DNA of 64,000 nucleotides, taken from the NCBI GenBank assembly GCA_963825525.1, contig CAWGTN010000001.1, forward strand, positions 32,001 through 96,000, given 5' to 3'. Positions 24,188 through 39,577 of the stretch are shown piece after piece. Below the pieces are notes generated by a model. That model ran no database searches and was not told the origin of the DNA. It worked only from the letters and a program-made list of their open reading frames with translations. The translations under genes and the position numbers were made by a program. Each line of letters begins with the position of its first letter. Within the stretch, counting starts at the first letter, position 1. The DNA comes from an uncultured Chloroflexia bacterium (GTDB lineage: Bacteria; Chloroflexota; Limnocylindria; QHBO01).

Positions 24188-24215
24188 TTGACACGGTTCG
24201 GGCAGCGCGTATAGT
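24188..24215 (+). promoter_or_regulatory. Sigma70-type promoter of the ArsR-SRPBCC operon
   Basis: TTGACA (24188-24193), 16-nt spacer, TATAGT (24210-24215). Confidence 0.7.
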
Positions 24216-24222
24216 TCCGTTA

Positions 24223-24243
24223 GGTTATATAACCGAAAGGTGA
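24223..24243. promoter_or_regulatory. Probable ArsR autoregulatory operator
   Basis: Perfect palindrome GGTTATATAACC (24223-24234) overlapping AACCGAAAGGT, just downstream of the -10 element. Confidence 0.55.
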
Positions 24244-24248
24244 TCGAG

Positions 24249-24620
24249 ATGGGGAATGCGGACCAGCTCAGCGCGACCTTCGCCGCACTCGCCGATCCGA
24301 CGCGGCGCGCAATCCTCGCGCGTCTGGCGGTGGGCGAGGCATCGGTCAAGGAGCTGACGCTGCTGTCCGACATGACCCAGCCCGCGGTCTCGAAGCATCT
24401 CCGGGTGCTGGAGCGAGCGGGATTGATCGAGCAGGGGAGGCATGCGCAATGGCGACCACGCCGGTTGCGTGCCGATCCGCTCCGGGACGTGGCCGACTGG
24501 GTCGGCACGTATCGGCCGCACTGGGAGGAGCGCTTCGATCGGCTCGACGCCTTCCTCCGCGATCTCAATGAACGGCAGCAACCGCAGGAAGGAACCGACG
24601 ATGACCGCGACCAGGACTGA
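24249..24620 (+). CDS. ArsR/SmtB family transcriptional regulator
   Basis: FAALADPTRRAILARL, QPAVSKHLRVLERAGLI, WEERFDRLD. Confidence 0.92.
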   Translation: MGNADQLSATFAALADPTRRAILARLAVGEASVKELTLLSDMTQPAVSKHLRVLERAGLIEQGRHAQWRPRRLRADPLRDVADWVGTYRPHWEERFDRLDAFLRDLNERQQPQEGTDDDRDQD

Positions 24621-25101
24621 CCGAGGCAGCACCGACTCCACGACGATCTACTCGGAGAACGGTGACCTCACCTACGAGCGCATCTTCGCCGCGCCACGCG
24701 AGGCCGTGTGGAAGGCGAACACCGATGCCGAGCTCATTCCCCTGTGGTGGGGACCGCACGGAACGTCCACCACCGTCGCCGAGATGGACGTTCGTCCCGG
24801 TGGTGCGTGGCGCTTCGTGAGCAGCGGCCCGGATCGCGAGGACGTCGCGTTCTACGGCGAGTACCTCGAGGTGGTGCCGCCGGAGCGCATCAAGTGGACG
24901 TTCATGTTCGACGTCGAAGGTGTGGGTCCGCAGGGCGGGCCCGAGACGCTCACGCTGGAGGATCTGGGCGACGGGCGAACCCTGATGCGGGCCGTGTCGC
25001 ACATGGGATCCGAGGAGATCATCGAGCAGGCGCTGGCGACGGGCATGACGCAGGGCGCGATCGAGACGTGGGATCGGCTGGAGGCACTGTTGGCGGCTTA
25101 G
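24601..25101 (+). CDS. SRPBCC / AHSA1-like domain protein
   Basis: ERIFAAPREAVW, WWGP, MDVRPGGAWR, GEYLEVVPPERI, GMTQG...WDRL. Confidence 0.9.
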   Translation: MTATRTDRGSTDSTTIYSENGDLTYERIFAAPREAVWKANTDAELIPLWWGPHGTSTTVAEMDVRPGGAWRFVSSGPDREDVAFYGEYLEVVPPERIKWTFMFDVEGVGPQGGPETLTLEDLGDGRTLMRAVSHMGSEEIIEQALATGMTQGAIETWDRLEALLAA

Positions 25102-25123
25102 TTGAGCGAGCCTCAACCACGTT

Positions 25124-25147
25124 GACCGGGTCCGACCGGGCCCGGTC
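25124..25147 (+). terminator. Hairpin after the SRPBCC gene
   Basis: GACCGGGTCC-GACC-GGGCCCGGTC stem-loop. Confidence 0.4.
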
Positions 25148-25299
25148 GCTTGGTGAGCGGGAAATCGCGCAGTAAGCCGCTGGTAATCGACGGGGCGCAT
25201 GATCGGCGCAGCGGTGTGGGAAGCGTGCCCTGCGCCGCCGGCCCGGGTTATCCGGCCAGGGCCGGCGGCCCACGCCGCACCATCACGTGGGAGCCCGCC

Positions 25300-26065
25300 G
25301 TGCGATACGAGCTCATCGGACGCGGACTGCGGGCCTTGCGGCATCCGGCACGGCTTGCGCCAGGCAGGACGTCGCCGCAGCGCTGCGGAGCTGAGCCGCG
25401 CGGTGATCTCCGACCTCGAACACGGCCGGATCGAACACCATTCGTTGGCAGCGCTGGTGTCAGCGGCTCATGCGCTCGGGGCGACGCTTCGGATCGACCT
25501 CGGCATGCCGGGCGGTGATCTCCATCGGTTGCTGGATGCCGACCATGCGTGGCTCCAGGCCGAATGGGCAGGGCTGCTCGAGCGTTCCGGCTGGCTGGCC
25601 GAGGCGGAGCGCACGTTCAACCATTACGGCGAACGAGGCAGCATCGATCTGATCGCGTGGCACCCGCCGAGCCGAGTGCTGCTTGTTGTCGAGATCAAGA
25701 CCGTGATTGTCGACGTGCAGGATCTGCTCGCCGGCATCGATCGTAAGGTGCGCATCGGCGAGATCCTCGCTCGGCAGCACGGGCGGACCGTTTCAAGCGT
25801 CGTTCCGGCGCTGATCATTGCCGAAGGCTCGACGTCGCGGCGCCGCCTCCAGTCGCACGCGGCCCTGTTCCGTCGGTTCGCGCTGCGTGGACGTTCGGCT
25901 GTCGCCTGGCTGCGGGCTCCCGCTGCGGGCGTGGCGCCGACGGGGATCCTGTGCATGTCCAAATTGTCAGGTGCGCATCCTGGCGACCGTAGACGCGCTG
26001 GGCGTCAGCGAGTGCGGCTCCGCACTCGGGATCCACGCTCAGAGTCCGATGCTCGACGGGCATGA
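25300..26065 (+). CDS. XRE-type HTH fused to a PD-(D/E)XK nuclease-like domain; indels at 25342-25382
   Basis: GGGAG RBS plus GTG; reconstructed N-terminus MRYELIGRGLRALR(I)RHGLRQADVAAAAELSRAVISDLEHG (HTH_3); C-terminal E.TF.HYGERGSIDLIAW...LLVVEIKT (D...ExK). Confidence 0.75.
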
Positions 26066-26086
26066 CGGCGCCGATATCGCGCCTAG

Positions 26087-26213
26087 CGTCGCCAGGATGC
26101 GCAGGTGACGACAGAACGGCCGCTTGGCGCGGATACCGTCGCCAGGATGCGCAGGTGACGACAGACCGGCCGCTCAGGGCCGATACCGTCGCCGAGATGC
26201 GCAGGTGACGACA
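26087..26213 (+). repeat. Three 27-bp hairpin repeats at an exact 50-bp period
   Basis: CGTCGCCAGGATGCGCAGGTGACGACA at 26087 and 26137, and at 26187 with AG changed to GA; 23-nt interspacers related to each other; inverted copy at 25965-25987. Confidence 0.9.
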
Positions 26214-26222
26214 CGCGTCGCG

Positions 26223-27969
<1,747 letters not shown>

Positions 27970-28037
27970 GGGTTCCATCTTGGGGGCAGGGCCGATGTCC
28001 CCGCAACCGTGACGCCGCAACGTGGCAGGATTCGCCC

Positions 28038-30062
28038 ATGAGCGATGACTTCGATTTCGATGCCTACCTTCGTCTGCCTCGCCTCTCGGGCCTCGGCGCC
28101 TCACCCGACGGCCAACGCCTGGTCGTCAGCGTCGGGCGGCCGGCACCCGATGGCAAGAAGATGCACTCGTCCCTGTGGGAGCTGGATGCCAGCGGCGATG
28201 AGCGACCGCGCCGCCTGACTCGATCCGCACCGGGTGAGAGCGCGGCCACGTTCGCCCGTGACGGCTCGATCCTCTTCACCTCGAGCCGGCCGGATCCGGA
28301 TCGCGGGCCGGACGACGGAGCGGATGACGAAGAGATCTCCGGCCTGTGGCTGCTGCCGCCGAACGGTGGCGAGGCGCGCCTGCTGGCGGCGCCGTCGGGC
28401 GGCGTCGATGCGGTGGTCTCCGCTCGGGACGCCGATGTCGTGGTCTATGCAGCGTCGGTCTTCCCGGGAACCCGGGACGCGGCGAGCGACCTCGAGCGTC
28501 ACAAGGCACGGAAGAAGGCCGGTGTCGACGCGCTCCTGTTCGAGACCGTCCCGATCGGTCATTGGGACTCGTACCACGGACCACGGGAACGGCACCTGTT
28601 CGCTGCGCCGATGCCGGCGGGCGAGGATCGCATCGGCGACCCGAAGGACCTGACGCCGGACGCGGGCATCGCCCTCACCGAGCAGGGCTTCGACGTGACC
28701 CCGGACGGCGCCACGATCGTCACCGGGTGGGTGACGAGTGACGAGATCGGCCGGACCGACTTCGGGCTCATGGCGATCGATCGCGCGACAGGCGAGCATC
28801 GGCGGATCACGACCGAGGACAGCTGGTTCGACAGCCCGGCCTGCTCACCCGACGGCCGCTGGGTGGCCTGCGTGCGCTCGGACAAGGACGTTCCGGAGCG
28901 AGTCGGCGACGCCACGCTGTGGCTGATCGACCTGGCGACCGGGGACGGGCGCGATCTCACCCCCGACCTCGACCTCTGGCCGCAGCACCCTGTCTGGTCG
29001 GAGGACGGGACGGCCATCTGGTTCACCACCGATCGACAGGGCGCCGGTGCCGTGTTCCGCCACGACATCGGCTCCTCGACCACGACCCTCGTGGCCGACG
29101 ACGGCACCTTCACCGACCTGTCGGTCCATGCCGCCGGCGGGCCGGTGGCACTCAGCAATTCGTACGCGGATCCTCCCCATCCGGTTCGCCTTGGCGAAGA
29201 CGGCGCGAGCCAGCGCCTGCGCAGCTTCGCCGAACTCGATGCCGATGCCATCGCGAAGCTCCCGGGACGTGTGGAGCGCGTCCGCGCCGAGGCATCGGAC
29301 GGACAGGAGATCGGGTCGTGGCTGGTGCTGCCGCGCGACGCGTCCGCGGCGGCGCCGGTTCCGCTCGTGGTGTTCGTTCACGGCGGGCCGATCGGCAGCT
29401 GGAACGCGTGGACGTGGCGCTGGAACGCGCACCTGCTGGCGGCGAAGGGCTACGCGGTCCTGATGCCCGATCCCGCGATCTCCACCGGCTACGGCCACGC
29501 CTTCGTCCAGCGCGGCTGGGGCCGATGGGGCGCCGAGCCCTACACCGATGTCATGGCTGCCGTGGATGCCGCTCTGGAGCGGCCAGAGCTCGATACGGAG
29601 CGCACGGCTCTCATGGGTGGTTCGTTCGGCGGCTACATGGCGAACTGGGTGGCCGGCAACACCGACCGCTTCCGGGCCATCGTGACCCACGCCAGCCTGT
29701 GGGAGCTTCGCGGCTTCCATGGCACCACCGACTACGGCCCGGACTGGGAGCGGGAATTCGGCGATCCGTACACGGATCCGTCGCGCTACGAGGAATGGAG
29801 CCCCAGCCGGCTGCTTGCCAATATCCGCACCCCGATGCTGGTCATCCACGGCCAACGTGACCTGCGTGTACCCGTCAGCGAGGGACTGCGGCTATGGACC
29901 GACCTGCGGCGCCACAACGTTCCCGCGAGGTTCCTCTACTTCCCCGACGAGAATCACTGGATCCTCAAGCCGCAGAACGCGCGCCTCTGGTACGAGACCG
30001 TCTGGGCGTTCCTGGATGAGCACGTTCGTGGCGCCGAATGGCGCCGGCCGTCATTGCTGTGA
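28038..30062 (+). CDS. S9 family peptidase with beta-propeller
   Basis: VHGGP, GGSFGG (Ser), HGQRDLRV (Asp), FPDENHW (His). Confidence 0.92.
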
Positions 30063-36837: not shown

Positions 36838-37803
36838 CTACGCCTCGGTCGACCCGTCGTCTGCCAGGCCGATGACGCCCTTGTCGCGCACGAACCGCGA
36901 GCGGTACGTCGGGTTGCTCACGCGCTGGCTCACCGTCTTGGCGTCGAGTGGCTTGCCGCTCCGTGGAACCTGGTAGCGACCGCGCTCGACGATGGCGGCG
37001 GCGAGATCCGCCGCTGGCATCGCCCCCCGCTCGCGGATCACCTCGATCATCTCGTCATGCAGGGCGACGCGGTCCGTGCTCGGCGCGGCGGTCGCACGTC
37101 GCGGTCCACGGGGCTTCTTTGTCGTCGCCTCCCCTGCCGATTCGTCGGCAGAGACAGCCTCGGCCTGGGCGGACGGGGACTCGGATTGCGGCTCGGGGGA
37201 GGCCGCTCGCTGCGGCTTGGTGCCGCCGGCGTCCGACTCGAGGGCGGCGATTCGCGCGTCGAGCGCCGCGACGCGCTCCAGCAGCGTGGGTCCATCCCCA
37301 CCGGATTCGGCCACATCGACGCCGCCGCGCGCCGCGTCGAGTCGCTCCTCGACCCACTGGCGAACCAGGTCGCCGGGTCGAGTACCGGCCTCGCCGGCAA
37401 GGTGCTTCAGCGTGCTGACCCGTCGAGGATCCAGCCGGATCGACATCGCTCCCTCGTCGGGCGGACGGTCGCCACCCGGACGCGGCTGATACGGCCGATC
37501 TGCGCCAGGACGCGGCTGAAACGGCCGATCCCCGCCGGGACGCGGCTGGTATGGCCGGTCGCCACCGGGACGCGCCTGGTATGGCCGATCCCCGCCGGGA
37601 CGCGGCTGGTATGGCCGATCCCCGCCGGGACGCGGCTGGTATGGCCGGTCGCCACCGGGACGCGGCTGATATGGCCGATCGCCACCGGGGCGGCCGCGCG
37701 GCTGCCAGTCGCCCCCGCGTTGCGGCGGTCGATCTGGACGGTCGTTTCGGTCGCGATCGGGTCGATCGGGACGGCGGTCTGGGCCGCGTCGGTTAAAGCT
37801 CAT
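36838..37803 (-). CDS. Hypothetical protein: repetitive RGG/PY N-terminus, ribbon-helix-helix-like domain, C-terminal winged-helix-like domain
   Basis: (GGDRPYQPRP)x7; MSIRLDPRRVSTLKHLAGEAGTRPGDLVRQWVEERL; LHDEMIEVIRERGAMPAADLAAAI...; TATCGT 8 nt upstream. Confidence 0.7.
   Translation of the reverse strand: MSFNRRGPDRRPDRPDRDRNDRPDRPPQRGGDWQPRGRPGGDRPYQPRPGGDRPYQPRPGGDRPYQPRPGGDRPYQARPGGDRPYQPRPGGDRPFQPRPGADRPYQPRPGGDRPPDEGAMSIRLDPRRVSTLKHLAGEAGTRPGDLVRQWVEERLDAARGGVDVAESGGDGPTLLERVAALDARIAALESDAGGTKPQRAASPEPQSESPSAQAEAVSADESAGEATTKKPRGPRRATAAPSTDRVALHDEMIEVIRERGAMPAADLAAAIVERGRYQVPRSGKPLDAKTVSQRVSNPTYRSRFVRDKGVIGLADDGSTEA
37465..37689 (-). repeat. Coding 30-bp tandem repeat, about 7.5 units
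   Basis: Plus-strand units resembling CCGCCGGGACGCGGCTGGTATGGCCGATC; encodes GGDRPYQPRP. Confidence 0.9.
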
Positions 37804-37849
37804 CGTGTCCCACGATAGCCCTTCAGCCTGTCGGTGGCTACCGACGCAC

Positions 37850-39577
37850 TCAGAACGAGCCCGATCCGCCGCCTCCACCCGAGCTGCCACCGCCGGAGAA
37901 TCCGCCACCACCGCTGGATGAGGACGACGAGGACGGTGGGGTCGATCCGACGCTCCCGAGGGCGTCGAACATGCCGCCGATGTCCGGGATGGCGGACCCC
38001 GAGAAGATGCTTCCGGAACCGTAGCTGACACCGCCGCCGAGGTCGGCGGCTGCCGCCGGGGACCATGACGATCCCGACGATGAGCCGATCCAGAACGGGT
38101 AGTAGGCGCCGGCCGGCGAACCCGTTGCGGCGCGTTGCTCCTCGAGTCCGCGCGCCAGCAGTGACGCGACCTCGTCATGGAGGCCCAGTGCCATTCCCCA
38201 CACCACCGCCTTGTCCGGCGTGTCGGCCAACGTCGCCACCTCCGGCTGCTCCGTCACCTCGCGCATGGACCGAGCCTGCTCCATGGTCTTCTGAAGGGTG
38301 CGCCGATATGCCTTCAGCATCGCGTCCACGTAGGCGCCCTGCGATGACCGCTTGCTCATCGCCCGCCCGAACGCGATGGTGCCCAGCCCTCCGAGGATCG
38401 TGGCACCTCCAGCCAGGACCGCGCCGCTCATCGGCACGATGAACCCGATGCCGATGATGACCGCGCCGGCCACGAGGATGAGGATCCCGGTCCGCGTGCC
38501 GCGGCTGATGGCCCTCGAGGGCAGCTCGGTGAACCAGCCCAGTCTCATGGCTTCCTTCTCGAGCACCTTCTCGATGCTGCCCATCTTCGAGTTGACCCGC
38601 CACAGACGCTCGCGGCTCAGGCGCGTTGACGTCCCTGCCAGAGTGCGGATCGCGTCCCACGCCTTGCGCTCGGGAAGAGCCAGGCGATCGTCGTCGTCCT
38701 GGGCGGCCATCACCTCGATGGCCGGATCAGTCAGTGGATCAGGGTCTGCGTCGCTCCGCGCCGACGAGACCTGGTCGAGATTGTGGAACGCGATGCGACC
38801 GCTTGCCGCGAGCTCGGCGAGGATCGTGTTGGTGGCGTGACCGGTGGCACGGCCGGCGCGAACCACCGTTGCGAGCGCCGGCGTCATCTCCGCAGGTGGT
38901 CCGGCCATCAGGATTGAAGGGGAGTCGGTGAGCTCTGGATCGTCTCCCTGGCGGCGCCATCTCCACCACGCGCTCCCGAGCGTCAGGACCAGGATGAGCG
39001 GCGACCCGATCAGGCCGACGGCCGCGTTGACGACGCGACCGACGGTCAACGGGATCGTGTCGGGAGCCATGCGCTCCTGGATGGCCTCGATCGTGTTGCG
39101 CGTTGCCGCGTCCAGGTCCCCATCGGCCGCGCGCGGCACGAACGTGCTGTCGATGAGGCCGGTCAAGGTGTCCTCGTCGACGTGCTGCCGGATGAACCCC
39201 GACCCGCCGTACAGGCTCACCTTGCCGTTGATGAGGTTCGGCTGGAGCCCGACCAGCAGCACCAGGCCGTCGTCGAAGCCGGACCGCCCGATGCCCCATT
39301 GGTCGATGAGGGCGGCTGCCTTCGCCAGGTTCTCGTCCTCGGTGATGCCCGGGTCCACCTGGATGTAGACCACGATCTCGGCCCCGGTCTCGGCCTCGAC
39401 CGCATCGATGCGCGCCTCGAGGTCCGCGACCGTCTCAGGTTCCAGCACGCCGGGCTCGTCATACACGCTGCGTTCCGGCACAGGGTCGGGGAACGGAGGG
39501 CCGGCGGCGGCCACGGTCGCGACGAACGCGACCACGAGCAGCGGGGCAGCAGCGAGCGCCCGGAGCCATGCGTGCAT
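37850..39577 (-). CDS. TPM-domain membrane protein with DUF2207-like C-terminal part
   Basis: Signal peptide, VYDEPGVL, WGIGRSGFDDGLVLLV (TPM); TM helices; Gly/Ser tail SSSSSSGGGGFSGGGSSGGGGGSGSF. Confidence 0.85.
   Translation of the reverse strand: MHAWLRALAAAPLLVVAFVATVAAAGPPFPDPVPERSVYDEPGVLEPETVADLEARIDAVEAETGAEIVVYIQVDPGITEDENLAKAAALIDQWGIGRSGFDDGLVLLVGLQPNLINGKVSLYGGSGFIRQHVDEDTLTGLIDSTFVPRAADGDLDAATRNTIEAIQERMAPDTIPLTVGRVVNAAVGLIGSPLILVLTLGSAWWRWRRQGDDPELTDSPSILMAGPPAEMTPALATVVRAGRATGHATNTILAELAASGRIAFHNLDQVSSARSDADPDPLTDPAIEVMAAQDDDDRLALPERKAWDAIRTLAGTSTRLSRERLWRVNSKMGSIEKVLEKEAMRLGWFTELPSRAISRGTRTGILILVAGAVIIGIGFIVPMSGAVLAGGATILGGLGTIAFGRAMSKRSSQGAYVDAMLKAYRRTLQKTMEQARSMREVTEQPEVATLADTPDKAVVWGMALGLHDEVASLLARGLEEQRAATGSPAGAYYPFWIGSSSGSSWSPAAAADLGGGVSYGSGSIFSGSAIPDIGGMFDALGSVGSTPPSSSSSSSGGGGFSGGGSSGGGGGSGSF

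What the first reader, a model, noticed from the sequence alone, without database searches (positions are those of the whole stretch)
25300..26213. HTH-PD-(D/E)XK nuclease gene coupled to a 50-bp-period hairpin repeat array with an antisense copy inside the gene
Seen: the gene encodes an XRE-type HTH followed by a restriction-endonuclease-like motif (ERGSIDLIAW...VVEIKT). Starting 22 nt after its stop are three 27-nt repeats (CGTCGCCAGGATGCGCAGGTGACGACA) at 26087, 26137 and 26187. Each can fold into a 7-bp stem (CGTCGCC/GGTGACG, one G-U) with a 10-nt loop. The 23-nt interspacers are related but not identical (GAACGGCCGCTTGGCGCGGATAC, GACCGGCCGCTCAGGGCCGATAC). The reverse complement of 25965-25987, inside the gene's 3' end, shares 16 contiguous nt (GTCGCCAGGATGCGCA) with the repeat. 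The unit sits between unrelated housekeeping genes with no transposase or cas gene. Inference: a self-contained nuclease-plus-repeat module. It could be a REP/RAYT-like selfish element whose nuclease recognises its own repeats, or a type III toxin-antitoxin-like system whose repeat RNA regulates or guides the protein. I do not recognise it as a described system.
Basis: partly seen in the sequence, partly recalled or inferred. Interest (0 to 1): 0.82.

Follow-up and report, generated by a model that had tools for sequence, protein, structure and literature searches.

The report
Nuclease gene with matching dispersed palindromes
A DNA-binding nuclease-like gene of a soil Chloroflexota bacterium carries, in its own last codons, one arm of a long palindromic repeat that is also scattered through the genome, which recalls the REP/RAYT repeat systems but with a different kind of enzyme.

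Summary
There are three 27-nt repeats at 26087, 26137 and 26187 (period 50), and an inverted copy lies inside the gene's 3' end.

The repeats are not a private array of this gene. The in-gene copy and the first downstream copy are the two arms of a ~150-nt imperfect palindrome. It encloses the stop codon, and its right arm is tandemly amplified.

The gene belongs to a ~250-aa family with an XRE HTH and a PD-(D/E)XK-like domain, found almost only in Candidatus Limnocylindria. This genome has three members. Each has its own arm sequence at the same codons, and each arm type recurs elsewhere as inverted pairs at fixed spacing: 6, at least 13 and at least 5 pairs.

The same inverted repeat appears in 36 of 70 family loci, against 1 in each control.

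Two relatives in the same genus have the SRPBCC gene beside the mutase gene with no nuclease gene or array (empty sites). Four gene-less copies compared are absent at matching sites in another same-genus relative.

Arms are conserved as sequence motifs, with no compensatory pairing.

Best reading: a REPIN/RAYT-like partnership between a nuclease and its repeats, using a different enzyme class. That the protein acts on the repeats is inferred, not shown. A type III toxin-antitoxin reading is not supported.

The parts
25280..26218 (+). Whole segment present in the window but absent between the SRPBCC gene and the mutase gene in the closest relative searched. It contains the gene, the palindrome and the array.
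   Evidence: blastn of the window against L093 (G004) aligns 24206-25279 and 26219-27399 only. L101 (G017) also has SRPBCC about 145 nt from the mutase stop.
25185..25279 (+). Conserved upstream non-coding stretch. Its core is 25211-25243 and it contains a GC-rich hairpin. It stays behind at the empty sites.
   Evidence: It is present in G004, G017 and G014 upstream of the gene or of the empty site. The core occurs once in the own genome. No Rfam family matches it.
25300..26065 (+). Gene for an XRE-HTH plus PD-(D/E)XK-like protein. The intact form is about 253 aa. In this assembly the frame breaks between 25344 and about 25390.
   Evidence: Homologs: 318 hits, best 94% identity at 253 aa. Frames. 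HTH. Nuclease-like motif.
25963..26008 (+). Left arm of the palindrome, inside the coding sequence. It covers the codons for LSGAHPGDRRRAGRQ, a conserved C-terminal motif.
   Evidence: Tail conservation is shown in A1.
26009..26086 (+). Interior of the palindrome. It holds the last codons, the stop codon (26063-26065) and 21 nt of 3' flank.
26087..26113 (+). Right arm, copy 1.
26114..26136 (+). Spacer 1. It is itself an inverted match to the codons that follow the left arm.
26137..26163 (+). Right arm, copy 2.
26164..26186 (+). Spacer 2.
26187..26213 (+). Right arm, copy 3, with 2 mismatches.

Best explanation
The region is the gene-linked copy of a REPIN/BIME-like dispersed palindromic element, joined to the gene of the protein that most likely recognises it.

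SHOWN:
- The gene belongs to a ~250-aa family with an N-terminal XRE HTH, a PD-(D/E)XK-like core with invariant E..D..ExK, and a basic C-terminal tail. The family is found almost only in Candidatus Limnocylindria (Chloroflexota).
- In family members, the codons about 17 residues after a conserved Trp are repeated in inverted orientation about 120 nt downstream. The stop codon therefore lies inside a ~120-150-nt imperfect palindrome.
- The arm sequence differs between paralogs.
- Each arm type recurs in the same genome as gene-less inverted pairs at a fixed spacing, in intergenic DNA.
- These gene-less copies are present or absent between species of the same genus.
- Arms can be tandemly amplified with a 50-bp period, at the gene and at gene-less copies.
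- Arms are conserved as bipartite sequence motifs, not as base pairs.
- The genes sit at conserved chromosomal places (next to mreB, dnaK or the mutase gene), although this one is absent from the same site in two close relatives.

INFERRED:
- Each protein binds its own arm sequence as DNA, through the HTH and perhaps the basic tail.
- With its nuclease domain it cuts or processes these sites. This would spread or maintain the repeat population, as RAYT transposases are thought to do for REPINs.
- Because one arm is coding sequence of the protein itself, the master copy would be protected by selection on the protein, and gene and repeats would co-diverge.
For: 1. Three family genes lie in the own genome. 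Each has a downstream arm complementary to its own 3' codons, with unrelated sequences.

2. In 70 family loci (67 from other genomes plus 3 own), the best ungapped inverted match between the last 150 nt of the gene and the next 250 nt scores at least 16 in 36 loci. The reversed-only control reaches that in 1 locus and the complement-only control in 1. At a score of at least 18 the counts are 28 against 0 and 0.

3. Among the 33 high-scoring loci with an identifiable anchor, the left arm starts a median of 50 nt after the conserved Trp codon (IQR 45-57). Arm-to-arm spacing has a median of 122 nt.

4. Own-genome scans at up to 6 mismatches over 26 nt give 16 hits for the window type (control 1), 32 for paralog-1 type (control 0) and 7 for paralog-2 type (control 0). 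At up to 7 mismatches the hits form inverted pairs: 6 pairs at spacing 102-124, at least 13 pairs mostly at spacing 92, and at least 5 pairs at spacing 109.

5. The same pattern is seen in other genomes. Arms taken from a family gene recur elsewhere in that genome: G001 7 hits against 0 control, G003 3 against 0, and G002 14 against 0. G002 is an unpublished genome.

6. Counts within the genus (41 genomes) follow the cognate gene. Window-type arms: G000 13, G041 11, G014 3, all others 0-2. Paralog-1-type arms: G000 36, G007 23, all others 0-3. G007 holds the closest paralog-1 ortholog (67%). About half of G007's arms share a substitution (GCGCACC instead of GCGAACC) with the arm inside G007's own gene.

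7. Presence/absence evidence. The gene and array are missing between SRPBCC and the mutase in G004 and G017. Four gene-less copies are absent at orthologous sites of G020. G020 also has no window-type or paralog-1-type arms and no close gene of those types. One paralog-1-type copy is shared at the same site by G000, G004 and G007.

8. The 50-bp tandem arms recur. There are 3 right arms beside the 57%-identical homolog at the mutase gene in G014 and 2 in G056. Gene-less copies in G041 have 1+3, 2+2 and 1+2 arms.

9. There is no compensatory change within elements. At variable arm positions, identity within an element versus between elements is 0.363 vs 0.398, 0.385 vs 0.451 and 0.381 vs 0.398.

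10. Nuclease-like domain. E, D, E and K are invariant in 43 sequences. Weak hits to PD-(D/E)XK Pfam families are: HSDR_N_2 in 18 of 43 members, MmcB-like 12, YhcG_C 8, UPF0102 7, VRR_NUC 5 and NERD 5. The only PDB hit is a restriction endonuclease, 9wuf_A, E 0.003, aligned over the D...ExK region.

11. Conserved synteny. Paralog-1-type genes lie directly upstream of mreB in 6 loci, and 4 loci lie next to dnaK.
Against: - No experiment or structure links the protein to the repeats. Adjacency and co-divergence are the only evidence.
- The nuclease fold rests on sub-threshold profile hits.
- G041 has 11 window-type arms but no window-type gene was found there. That genome is 78% complete.
- The genome holds a fourth family of similar long palindromes at 8 or more loci with no family gene. 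Such repeats therefore do not need this gene family.
- Only about half of the family loci pass the inverted-repeat threshold (36 of 70).
- No target-site duplication could be defined at the empty sites, because the intergenic DNA is too diverged.
- The window's own copy of the gene is frameshifted in this assembly.
- The gene is flanked by its arms on the 3' side only. That fits no known transposon layout.
Confidence: 0.6

Rival explanations
1. The arms are operator sites of a DNA-binding regulator. Each HTH protein would control a small set of genes through paired sites in intergenic DNA, and control itself through the pair at its own 3' end. The nuclease-like domain would serve as a sensor or oligomerisation module, and the repeats would not be mobile.
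For: The XRE HTH is the strongest domain signal. Arms are conserved as sequence motifs without compensatory pairing. Paired sites lie at fixed spacing in intergenic DNA next to promoters, for example upstream of an Hsp20 gene and between divergent genes. The genes are syntenic and look vertically inherited.
Against: The elements are insertions or deletions of the whole ~120-150-nt unit relative to same-genus genomes, including one between two genes only 19 nt apart in the relative. Interiors share short conserved central motifs, which suggests common descent of whole units. The tandem 50-bp amplification and clusters of arms are unusual for operators. The catalytic E..D..ExK residues are invariant. 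A regulatory site inside the 3' coding end is unusual.
Confidence: 0.15
2. The palindromes are ordinary MITE- or REP-like repeats moved by some other enzyme or by recombination. On this reading the link with the gene is one-sided. Either the elements prefer to sit at, or were once captured by, the 3' end of these genes, or the long hairpin serves as an mRNA 3' stabiliser or terminator, and the protein plays no part.
For: The unit folds as one long hairpin (z -5.0). A fourth family of similar palindromes exists without any family gene. REP elements are known to act as 3' mRNA stabilisers (recalled, not checked in a paper here).
Against: Three paralogs in one genome each match a different dispersed family at the same codon position. 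The same holds in other genomes. Arms co-diverge with the gene between species. The left arm encodes a conserved protein motif, so it is not an insertion that merely extends the frame. Variable positions show no compensatory pairing, which argues against selection for an RNA stem.
Confidence: 0.15
3. The inverted arms flank an invertible DNA segment (an intragenic inverton). Flipping it would swap the protein's C-terminal tail, and the gene-less copies would be invertible intergenic switches.
For: The geometry resembles invertons: 26-45-nt inverted repeats around about 100 bp, intergenic or overlapping a gene end.
Against: Nearly all intact family members end in a related basic tail in a single orientation. 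No tyrosine or serine recombinase was seen among the neighbours annotated. The tandem amplification of one arm is not explained.
Confidence: 0.05
4. A type III toxin-antitoxin-like system, in which the tandem repeats are transcribed and processed into RNAs that neutralise or guide the nuclease.
For: Three tandem repeats lie beside a nuclease-like gene. The repeats are complementary to the gene's own mRNA.
Against: Most family loci have one downstream arm, not an array. The same arms occur as gene-less inverted pairs and arrays far from any family gene. The protein has an HTH plus a PD-(D/E)XK-like domain, with no hit to ToxN- or AbiE-type families in PADLOC or Pfam. No promoter or terminator pattern was found.
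Confidence: 0.03

Closest known systems
REPIN-RAYT systems: REP doublets and their REP-associated tyrosine transposases. I saw abstracts and search listings only, for PMC3116915, PMC3337134, PMC2817692 and bioRxiv 10.1101/2021.07.10.451892.
   Same: Short arms occur in inverted pairs with a spacer and are dispersed in extragenic DNA. Each gene copy has its own cognate repeat family next to it. The gene is low-copy, syntenic and apparently vertically inherited. The repeat populations differ between related genomes.
   Different: The protein is an XRE-HTH plus PD-(D/E)XK-like protein, not an HUH/Y1 transposase. The arms flank the gene on the 3' side only, and one arm lies inside the conserved coding sequence. 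Copy numbers are low (5 to about 15 pairs, not hundreds). Only one of the three arm types has a REP-like small hairpin.
BIMEs (bacterial interspersed mosaic elements): regularly spaced REPs in clusters. I saw the abstract of PMC2817692.
   Same: Arms are arranged in regular tandem sets of variable number. Here the unit is 50 bp, in 1+3, 2+2 and 1+2 arrangements.
   Different: In the arrays seen here, all copies on one side have the same orientation, rather than alternating throughout. The sequence and the host phylum are unrelated.
MITEs and their parent insertion sequences
   Same: Units of 120-150 bp with terminal inverted repeats, uniform length within a family, intergenic location, and presence/absence between related genomes.
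   Different: No parent element has both inverted repeats around a transposase gene. No target-site duplication could be defined. The linked protein is not a known transposase type.
Solitary restriction-endonuclease-like proteins and controller (C) proteins of restriction-modification systems
   Same: The HTH resembles C proteins and antitoxin HTHs (PDB profile hits to C.BclI, C.AhdI and HigA). The core resembles restriction endonuclease domains (9wuf_A and Upx).
   Different: No methyltransferase partner was seen beside the window gene. The long ~26-45-nt cognate sites occur in inverted pairs, one of them in the gene itself.

Membership tests
REPIN-RAYT system | The associated gene encodes an HUH/Y1 (IS200-like) transposase. 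| tested here: not met
   Pfam, NCBIfam and PADLOC scans of family members give only HTH hits and weak PD-(D/E)XK hits. No Y1_Tnp hit appeared.
REPIN-RAYT system | The repeats occur as inverted doublets with a spacer, dispersed in extragenic DNA. | tested here: met
   There are 6, at least 13 and at least 5 inverted pairs at spacings of 102-124, 92 and 109 nt. The four gene-less window-type pairs whose context was examined are intergenic.
REPIN-RAYT system | Each gene is flanked by its own cognate repeat type. | tested here: met
   Three paralogs match three arm types. Other genomes show the same. The arms lie on the 3' side only.
REPIN-RAYT system | Each repeat is a short imperfect palindrome (REP) with a conserved tetranucleotide (GTAG) beside it. 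The feature is recalled from memory. | tested here: inconclusive
   The window type has a 7-bp stem and an adjacent CTAG. The other two types show no clear internal palindrome.
MITE / insertion sequence | Terminal inverted repeats plus a target-site duplication. | tested here: inconclusive
   Inverted repeats are present. The flanks at empty sites are too diverged to read a duplication.
MITE / insertion sequence | An autonomous partner carries the same inverted repeats on both sides of a transposase gene. | tested here: not met
   No arm lies upstream of any of the three genes, at up to 7 mismatches.
PD-(D/E)XK nuclease superfamily | Catalytic motif (E)...D...(D/E)xK in the conserved core. | tested here: met
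   E35, D48, E63 and K65 are invariant in 43 sequences. The motif aligns to the D...ExK region of a restriction endonuclease, 9wuf_A.
PD-(D/E)XK nuclease superfamily | The alpha-beta-beta-beta-alpha-beta restriction-endonuclease-like fold. | not testable with these tools
Only sub-threshold Pfam hits to eight PD-(D/E)XK families are available.
XRE-family helix-turn-helix | An N-terminal HTH_3/HTH_31-type domain. | tested here: met
   PF13560 and PF01381 are precomputed for most homologs. Profile hits to HigA2, ClgR and SinR structures range from E 1e-8 to 1e-5. In the window copy only the second half of the domain is in frame.
Type III toxin-antitoxin (ToxIN-like) | A tandem repeat array transcribed beside a ToxN/AbiQ-type endoribonuclease gene. 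| tested here: not met
   No such family hit appeared. Arrays are not general, and they also occur without the gene.
Inverton (invertible DNA switch) | Both orientations are found, and a site-specific recombinase is present. | tested here: inconclusive
   Nearly all intact tails run in one orientation. The contigs laid on the region cannot show rare forms. Recombinase genes were not searched for genome-wide.

The most novel reading that the evidence does not exclude
These HTH-PD-(D/E)XK proteins are the dedicated enzymes of a second, independent class of within-genome replicators analogous to REPIN-RAYT. A restriction-endonuclease-fold protein would bind and cut long bipartite sites arranged as inverted pairs, and would copy or maintain them around the chromosome. 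Its recognition site would be written into the codons of its own C-terminal tail, so that enzyme and repeats are locked into co-evolution.
Probability: 0.4. Interest if true: 0.88.

Novelty: new variant of a known kind. Interest (0 to 1): 0.78.

Why it matters
REPIN-RAYT is, to my knowledge, the only described case in which a low-copy, vertically inherited nuclease or transposase gene lives with its own population of short palindromic repeats. A second case would show that this kind of partnership evolved more than once. Here it would be built on a different enzyme fold, in a poorly known soil phylum, with one repeat arm embedded in the enzyme's own coding sequence. It would also offer proteins that may recognise long (~26-45 nt), paralog-specific DNA sites, which is of practical interest.

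The case is easy to test. Three paralogs with three distinct cognate sites in one genome give built-in specificity controls.

My searches for prior descriptions found nothing. 'PDDEXK' with 'extragenic palindromic' gave 0 papers. 'XRE', 'restriction endonuclease-like', 'inverted repeats' and 'Chloroflexota' gave 0 papers holding three of the four terms. These searches cover open-access text only, and supplements were not seen.

Tried and rejected
Structure and prior notes. Structure prediction, the search of earlier findings and the protein-atlas search were closed or held nothing. The fold and any earlier notes are therefore untested.

Rfam. The region 24900-26400 gave only a chance-level hit (BTH_s1, 12.8 bits, E 3.4). 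The promoter and terminator scans found nothing.

Sequencing runs. 23 runs were listed and no RNA holder was listed. All runs laid were contigs. They broke at the array (ends at 26116/26117, resuming at 26137-26204) and showed no strand-changing joints. That is low power and is not evidence against inversion.

Other steps that led nowhere:
- A loose regular-expression scan for the hairpin (second half) was too permissive and I discarded it.
- A first gapped local-alignment scan for inverted repeats was penalised by the variable middle of the arms. I replaced it with the ungapped scan with controls.
- Neighbour clustering by stop-to-stop frames was noisy. I replaced it with targeted tblastn for MreB and DnaK.
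- The dif/Xer-like reading (a GGTGCGCAT match recalled from E. coli dif) was dropped. The arms are not palindromic around a shared central region, and the centres are not reverse complements of each other.
- The attC/integron reading was dropped, because the arms are long sequence motifs and no integrase was seen among the annotated neighbours.
- The comparison of the gene-less copy near C2:1928100 with relatives gave rearranged flanks, and I did not analyse it further.
- The stringent de novo scan for inverted pairs found only 14 pairs genome-wide. It misses most family members, which the motif scans find, so it serves only to show that such pairs are rare and to reveal a fourth family.
- Literature: searches returned only general MITE/REP papers.
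Full report
**What is in the window.** Tandem Repeats Finder reports one array at 26087-26213 (period 50, 2.5 copies, score 205). The 27-mer occurs three times with 0, 0 and 2 mismatches, against none expected. The gene's stop codon is at 26063-26065. Inside the gene's 3' end, 25963-25988 is an inverted copy of the repeat: 16 nt exact and 5 mismatches over 26 nt. The inverted similarity continues for about 45 nt, from 25964-26008 against 26117-26161. The 23-nt 'spacers' are therefore part of the repeated unit. Each 50-nt unit is an inverted copy of the codons for LSGAHPGDRRRAGRQ. The segment 25958-26118 folds as one long hairpin (-86.4 kcal/mol, z -5.0, 0 of 200 shuffles). The array alone is barely better than shuffles. 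The neighbours are an ArsR-type regulator, an AHSA1/SRPBCC protein and methylmalonyl-CoA mutase.

**State of the gene in this assembly.** Intact homologs are about 253 aa and begin MRYELIGRGLRALR.... In the window, residues 1-15 lie in one frame (25300-25344) and residues 16-249 in another (25346-26050), with a garbled stretch between. Contigs of related strains from public soil runs lack single bases at 25351, 25356, 25364, 25378 and 25383. The neighbouring mutase gene is also split near 26755-26759, where a relative has one 612-aa frame. The genome is a 2.58-Mb assembly in 4 contigs. I read these breaks as probable indel errors, but a real pseudogene is not excluded.

**The protein family.**
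- A word-indexed search found 318 homologs. Most are 240-290 aa with XRE-type HTH Pfam domains.
- A scan of one genome per species found 251 relatives. Nearly all are in MAGs labelled Candidatus Limnocylindria or Chloroflexota, often several per genome.
- In 41 genomes of the genus, 30 have at least one copy, with up to 6 matches in one genome.
- The part after the HTH has no Pfam family above threshold. E, D, E and K of an E..D..ExK motif are invariant in 43 sequences.
- Members give repeated weak hits to PD-(D/E)XK families: HSDR_N_2 in 18 of 43, MmcB-like 12, YhcG_C 8, UPF0102 7, VRR_NUC 5 and NERD 5.
- The only PDB hit of the domain profile is a restriction endonuclease, aligned over D...ExK (9wuf_A, E 0.003).
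- The fold itself could not be modelled.
- The C-terminal tail, including the codons that form the left arm, is conserved as protein (...TKLSxARxGDRRRAGRQRVR).

**The inverted arm is a family feature and differs between paralogs.** The own genome has two more family genes, at 47-48% identity. Each has, about 110 nt downstream of the same codons, a reverse-complement arm of its own, unrelated sequence. One of them has the whole 3'-end-plus-arm unit duplicated in tandem. In 70 loci, the best ungapped inverted match between the last 150 nt of the gene and the next 250 nt reaches a score of 16 in 36 loci, against 1 and 1 in two composition-preserving controls. It reaches 18 in 28 loci, against 0 and 0. 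The left arm starts a median of 50 nt after a conserved Trp codon (IQR 45-57), and the arms lie a median of 122 nt apart. Direct duplications of the 3' end are also frequent (score of at least 16 in 12 of 70).

**The arms are dispersed repeats.** The window-type arm occurs at five other places in the genome, always as an inverted pair 102-124 nt apart. Four of these pairs were examined and lie in intergenic DNA. The paralog-1 arm forms at least 13 pairs, mostly exactly 92 nt apart, plus clusters. The paralog-2 arm forms at least 5 pairs, 109 nt apart. Reversed-pattern controls gave 0-1 hits at up to 6 mismatches. Within a family the arms and a short central motif are conserved, while the rest of the interior has diverged. 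At variable arm positions the two arms of one element are no more complementary to each other than to the arms of other elements. The arms therefore behave as conserved bipartite sequence motifs, not as a selected stem. That points to recognition by a protein rather than to an RNA helix.

**The pattern holds in other genomes.** Arms taken from a family gene recur elsewhere in that gene's genome:
- G001: 7 hits against 0 control, including a second pair at the same 119-nt spacing.
- G002: 14 hits against 0 (unpublished genome).
- G003: 3 hits against 0.
- G056: a paralog-1-type pair at 92-nt spacing.

In the genus, window-type arms are frequent only in G000 (13), G041 (11) and G014 (3). Paralog-1-type arms are frequent only in G000 (36) and G007 (23). 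G007 holds the closest paralog-1 ortholog (67%). About half of its arms carry the same derived base as the arm inside its own gene. One exception stands: no window-type gene was found in G041, which is 78% complete.

**The 50-bp array is a property of the element.** The 57%-identical homolog beside the mutase gene in G014 has one left arm and three right arms at a 50-bp period. The 78%-identical homolog in G056 has two right arms. In G041, gene-less intergenic copies have 1+3, 2+2 and 1+2 arms at the same period. This resembles the regular REP clusters called BIMEs (abstract of PMC2817692).

**Gain and loss.** In the closest relative searched, G004 (mutase 96% and SRPBCC 92.5% identical), the window aligns up to 25279 and again from 26219. 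In between, G004 has 183 unrelated nt. G017 has SRPBCC about 145 nt from the mutase stop. The whole gene-plus-array segment is thus present or absent with sharp edges, and a conserved upstream stretch stays behind. Four gene-less copies are missing at well-conserved orthologous sites of G020: one window-type, two paralog-2-type and one paralog-1-type. One of them lies between two genes only 19 nt apart in G020. The paralog-1-type copy is shared at the same site with G004 and G007. The intergenic flanks are too diverged to read target-site duplications. On the other hand, family genes keep their chromosomal places across species: directly upstream of mreB in 6 loci and beside dnaK in 4.

**Interpretation.** The facts fit a partnership between a low-copy, largely vertically inherited gene and its own population of palindromic repeats. 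This is the logic described for REPINs and RAYT transposases (abstracts of PMC3116915 and PMC3337134, and of bioRxiv 10.1101/2021.07.10.451892). It differs in three ways: the enzyme class (XRE-HTH plus PD-(D/E)XK-like, not HUH), low copy numbers, and one arm that is part of the enzyme's conserved coding sequence. That the protein binds and cuts the arms is inferred from adjacency, paralog-specific matching and co-divergence. It is not shown.

**Rivals and caveat.** The rivals are a regulator with paired operators, unrelated MITE-like repeats or a 3' RNA hairpin, an invertible switch, and a type III toxin-antitoxin system. Each explains some features but fails on others; the details are under the rival explanations. 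One caveat applies to the main reading. The genome also holds a fourth family of similar palindromes with no family gene, so such repeats can exist without this protein family.

**Verdict.** The 'self-contained module' and toxin-antitoxin ideas are not supported. I found no description of such a system in the open literature searched. Supplements and subscription journals were not covered.

Noticed in passing
window 26223-28104 (- strand): The methylmalonyl-CoA mutase gene is split into two overlapping frames near 26755-26759. A same-genus relative has one 612-aa frame, and related contigs lack one base at 26759. Together with the broken HTH region, this suggests indel errors in the assembly.
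   Followed up: partly
window 37466-37726: A second tandem array (period 30/60/90) is coding sequence on the - strand. It encodes decapeptide repeats (RPGGDRPYQP) inside a 446-aa frame at 36838-38178. It is an ordinary repetitive protein, unrelated to the finding.
   Followed up: partly
window 25185-25279: A conserved non-coding stretch with a GC-rich hairpin lies upstream of the gene. It is kept at the empty sites in G004 and G017 and upstream of the homolog in G014. Some database homologs have it translated as a false N-terminal extension. It might be the terminator of the convergent mutase gene or the promoter/leader of the nuclease gene. It has no Rfam match.
   Followed up: partly
own genome, outside the window: G000:C2:1800333-1800444, 1996552-1996707, 2000953-2001104, 2004406-2004549 and at least 4 more sites: A fourth family of ~150-nt long palindromes has an arm core of CCGCCGGTGGGAGTATCGGCCACT, with a small hairpin in each arm. 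No HTH-nuclease family gene is linked to it, and its partner gene, if any, is unknown.
   Followed up: partly
own genome, outside the window: G000:C2:149400-149720: At the second paralog, the ~180-bp unit made of the gene's last codons plus the downstream arm is duplicated in tandem. Direct duplications of the 3' end were also seen in several other family loci (12 of 70 with a score of at least 16).
   Followed up: partly
own genome, outside the window: G000:C2:103160-105040 and 607700-608112: Two places hold clusters of arms. One is a ~2-kb stretch with elements of all three arm types. The other is a ~400-bp cluster of five paralog-1-type arms. These may be hot spots for insertion or amplification.
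   Followed up: no
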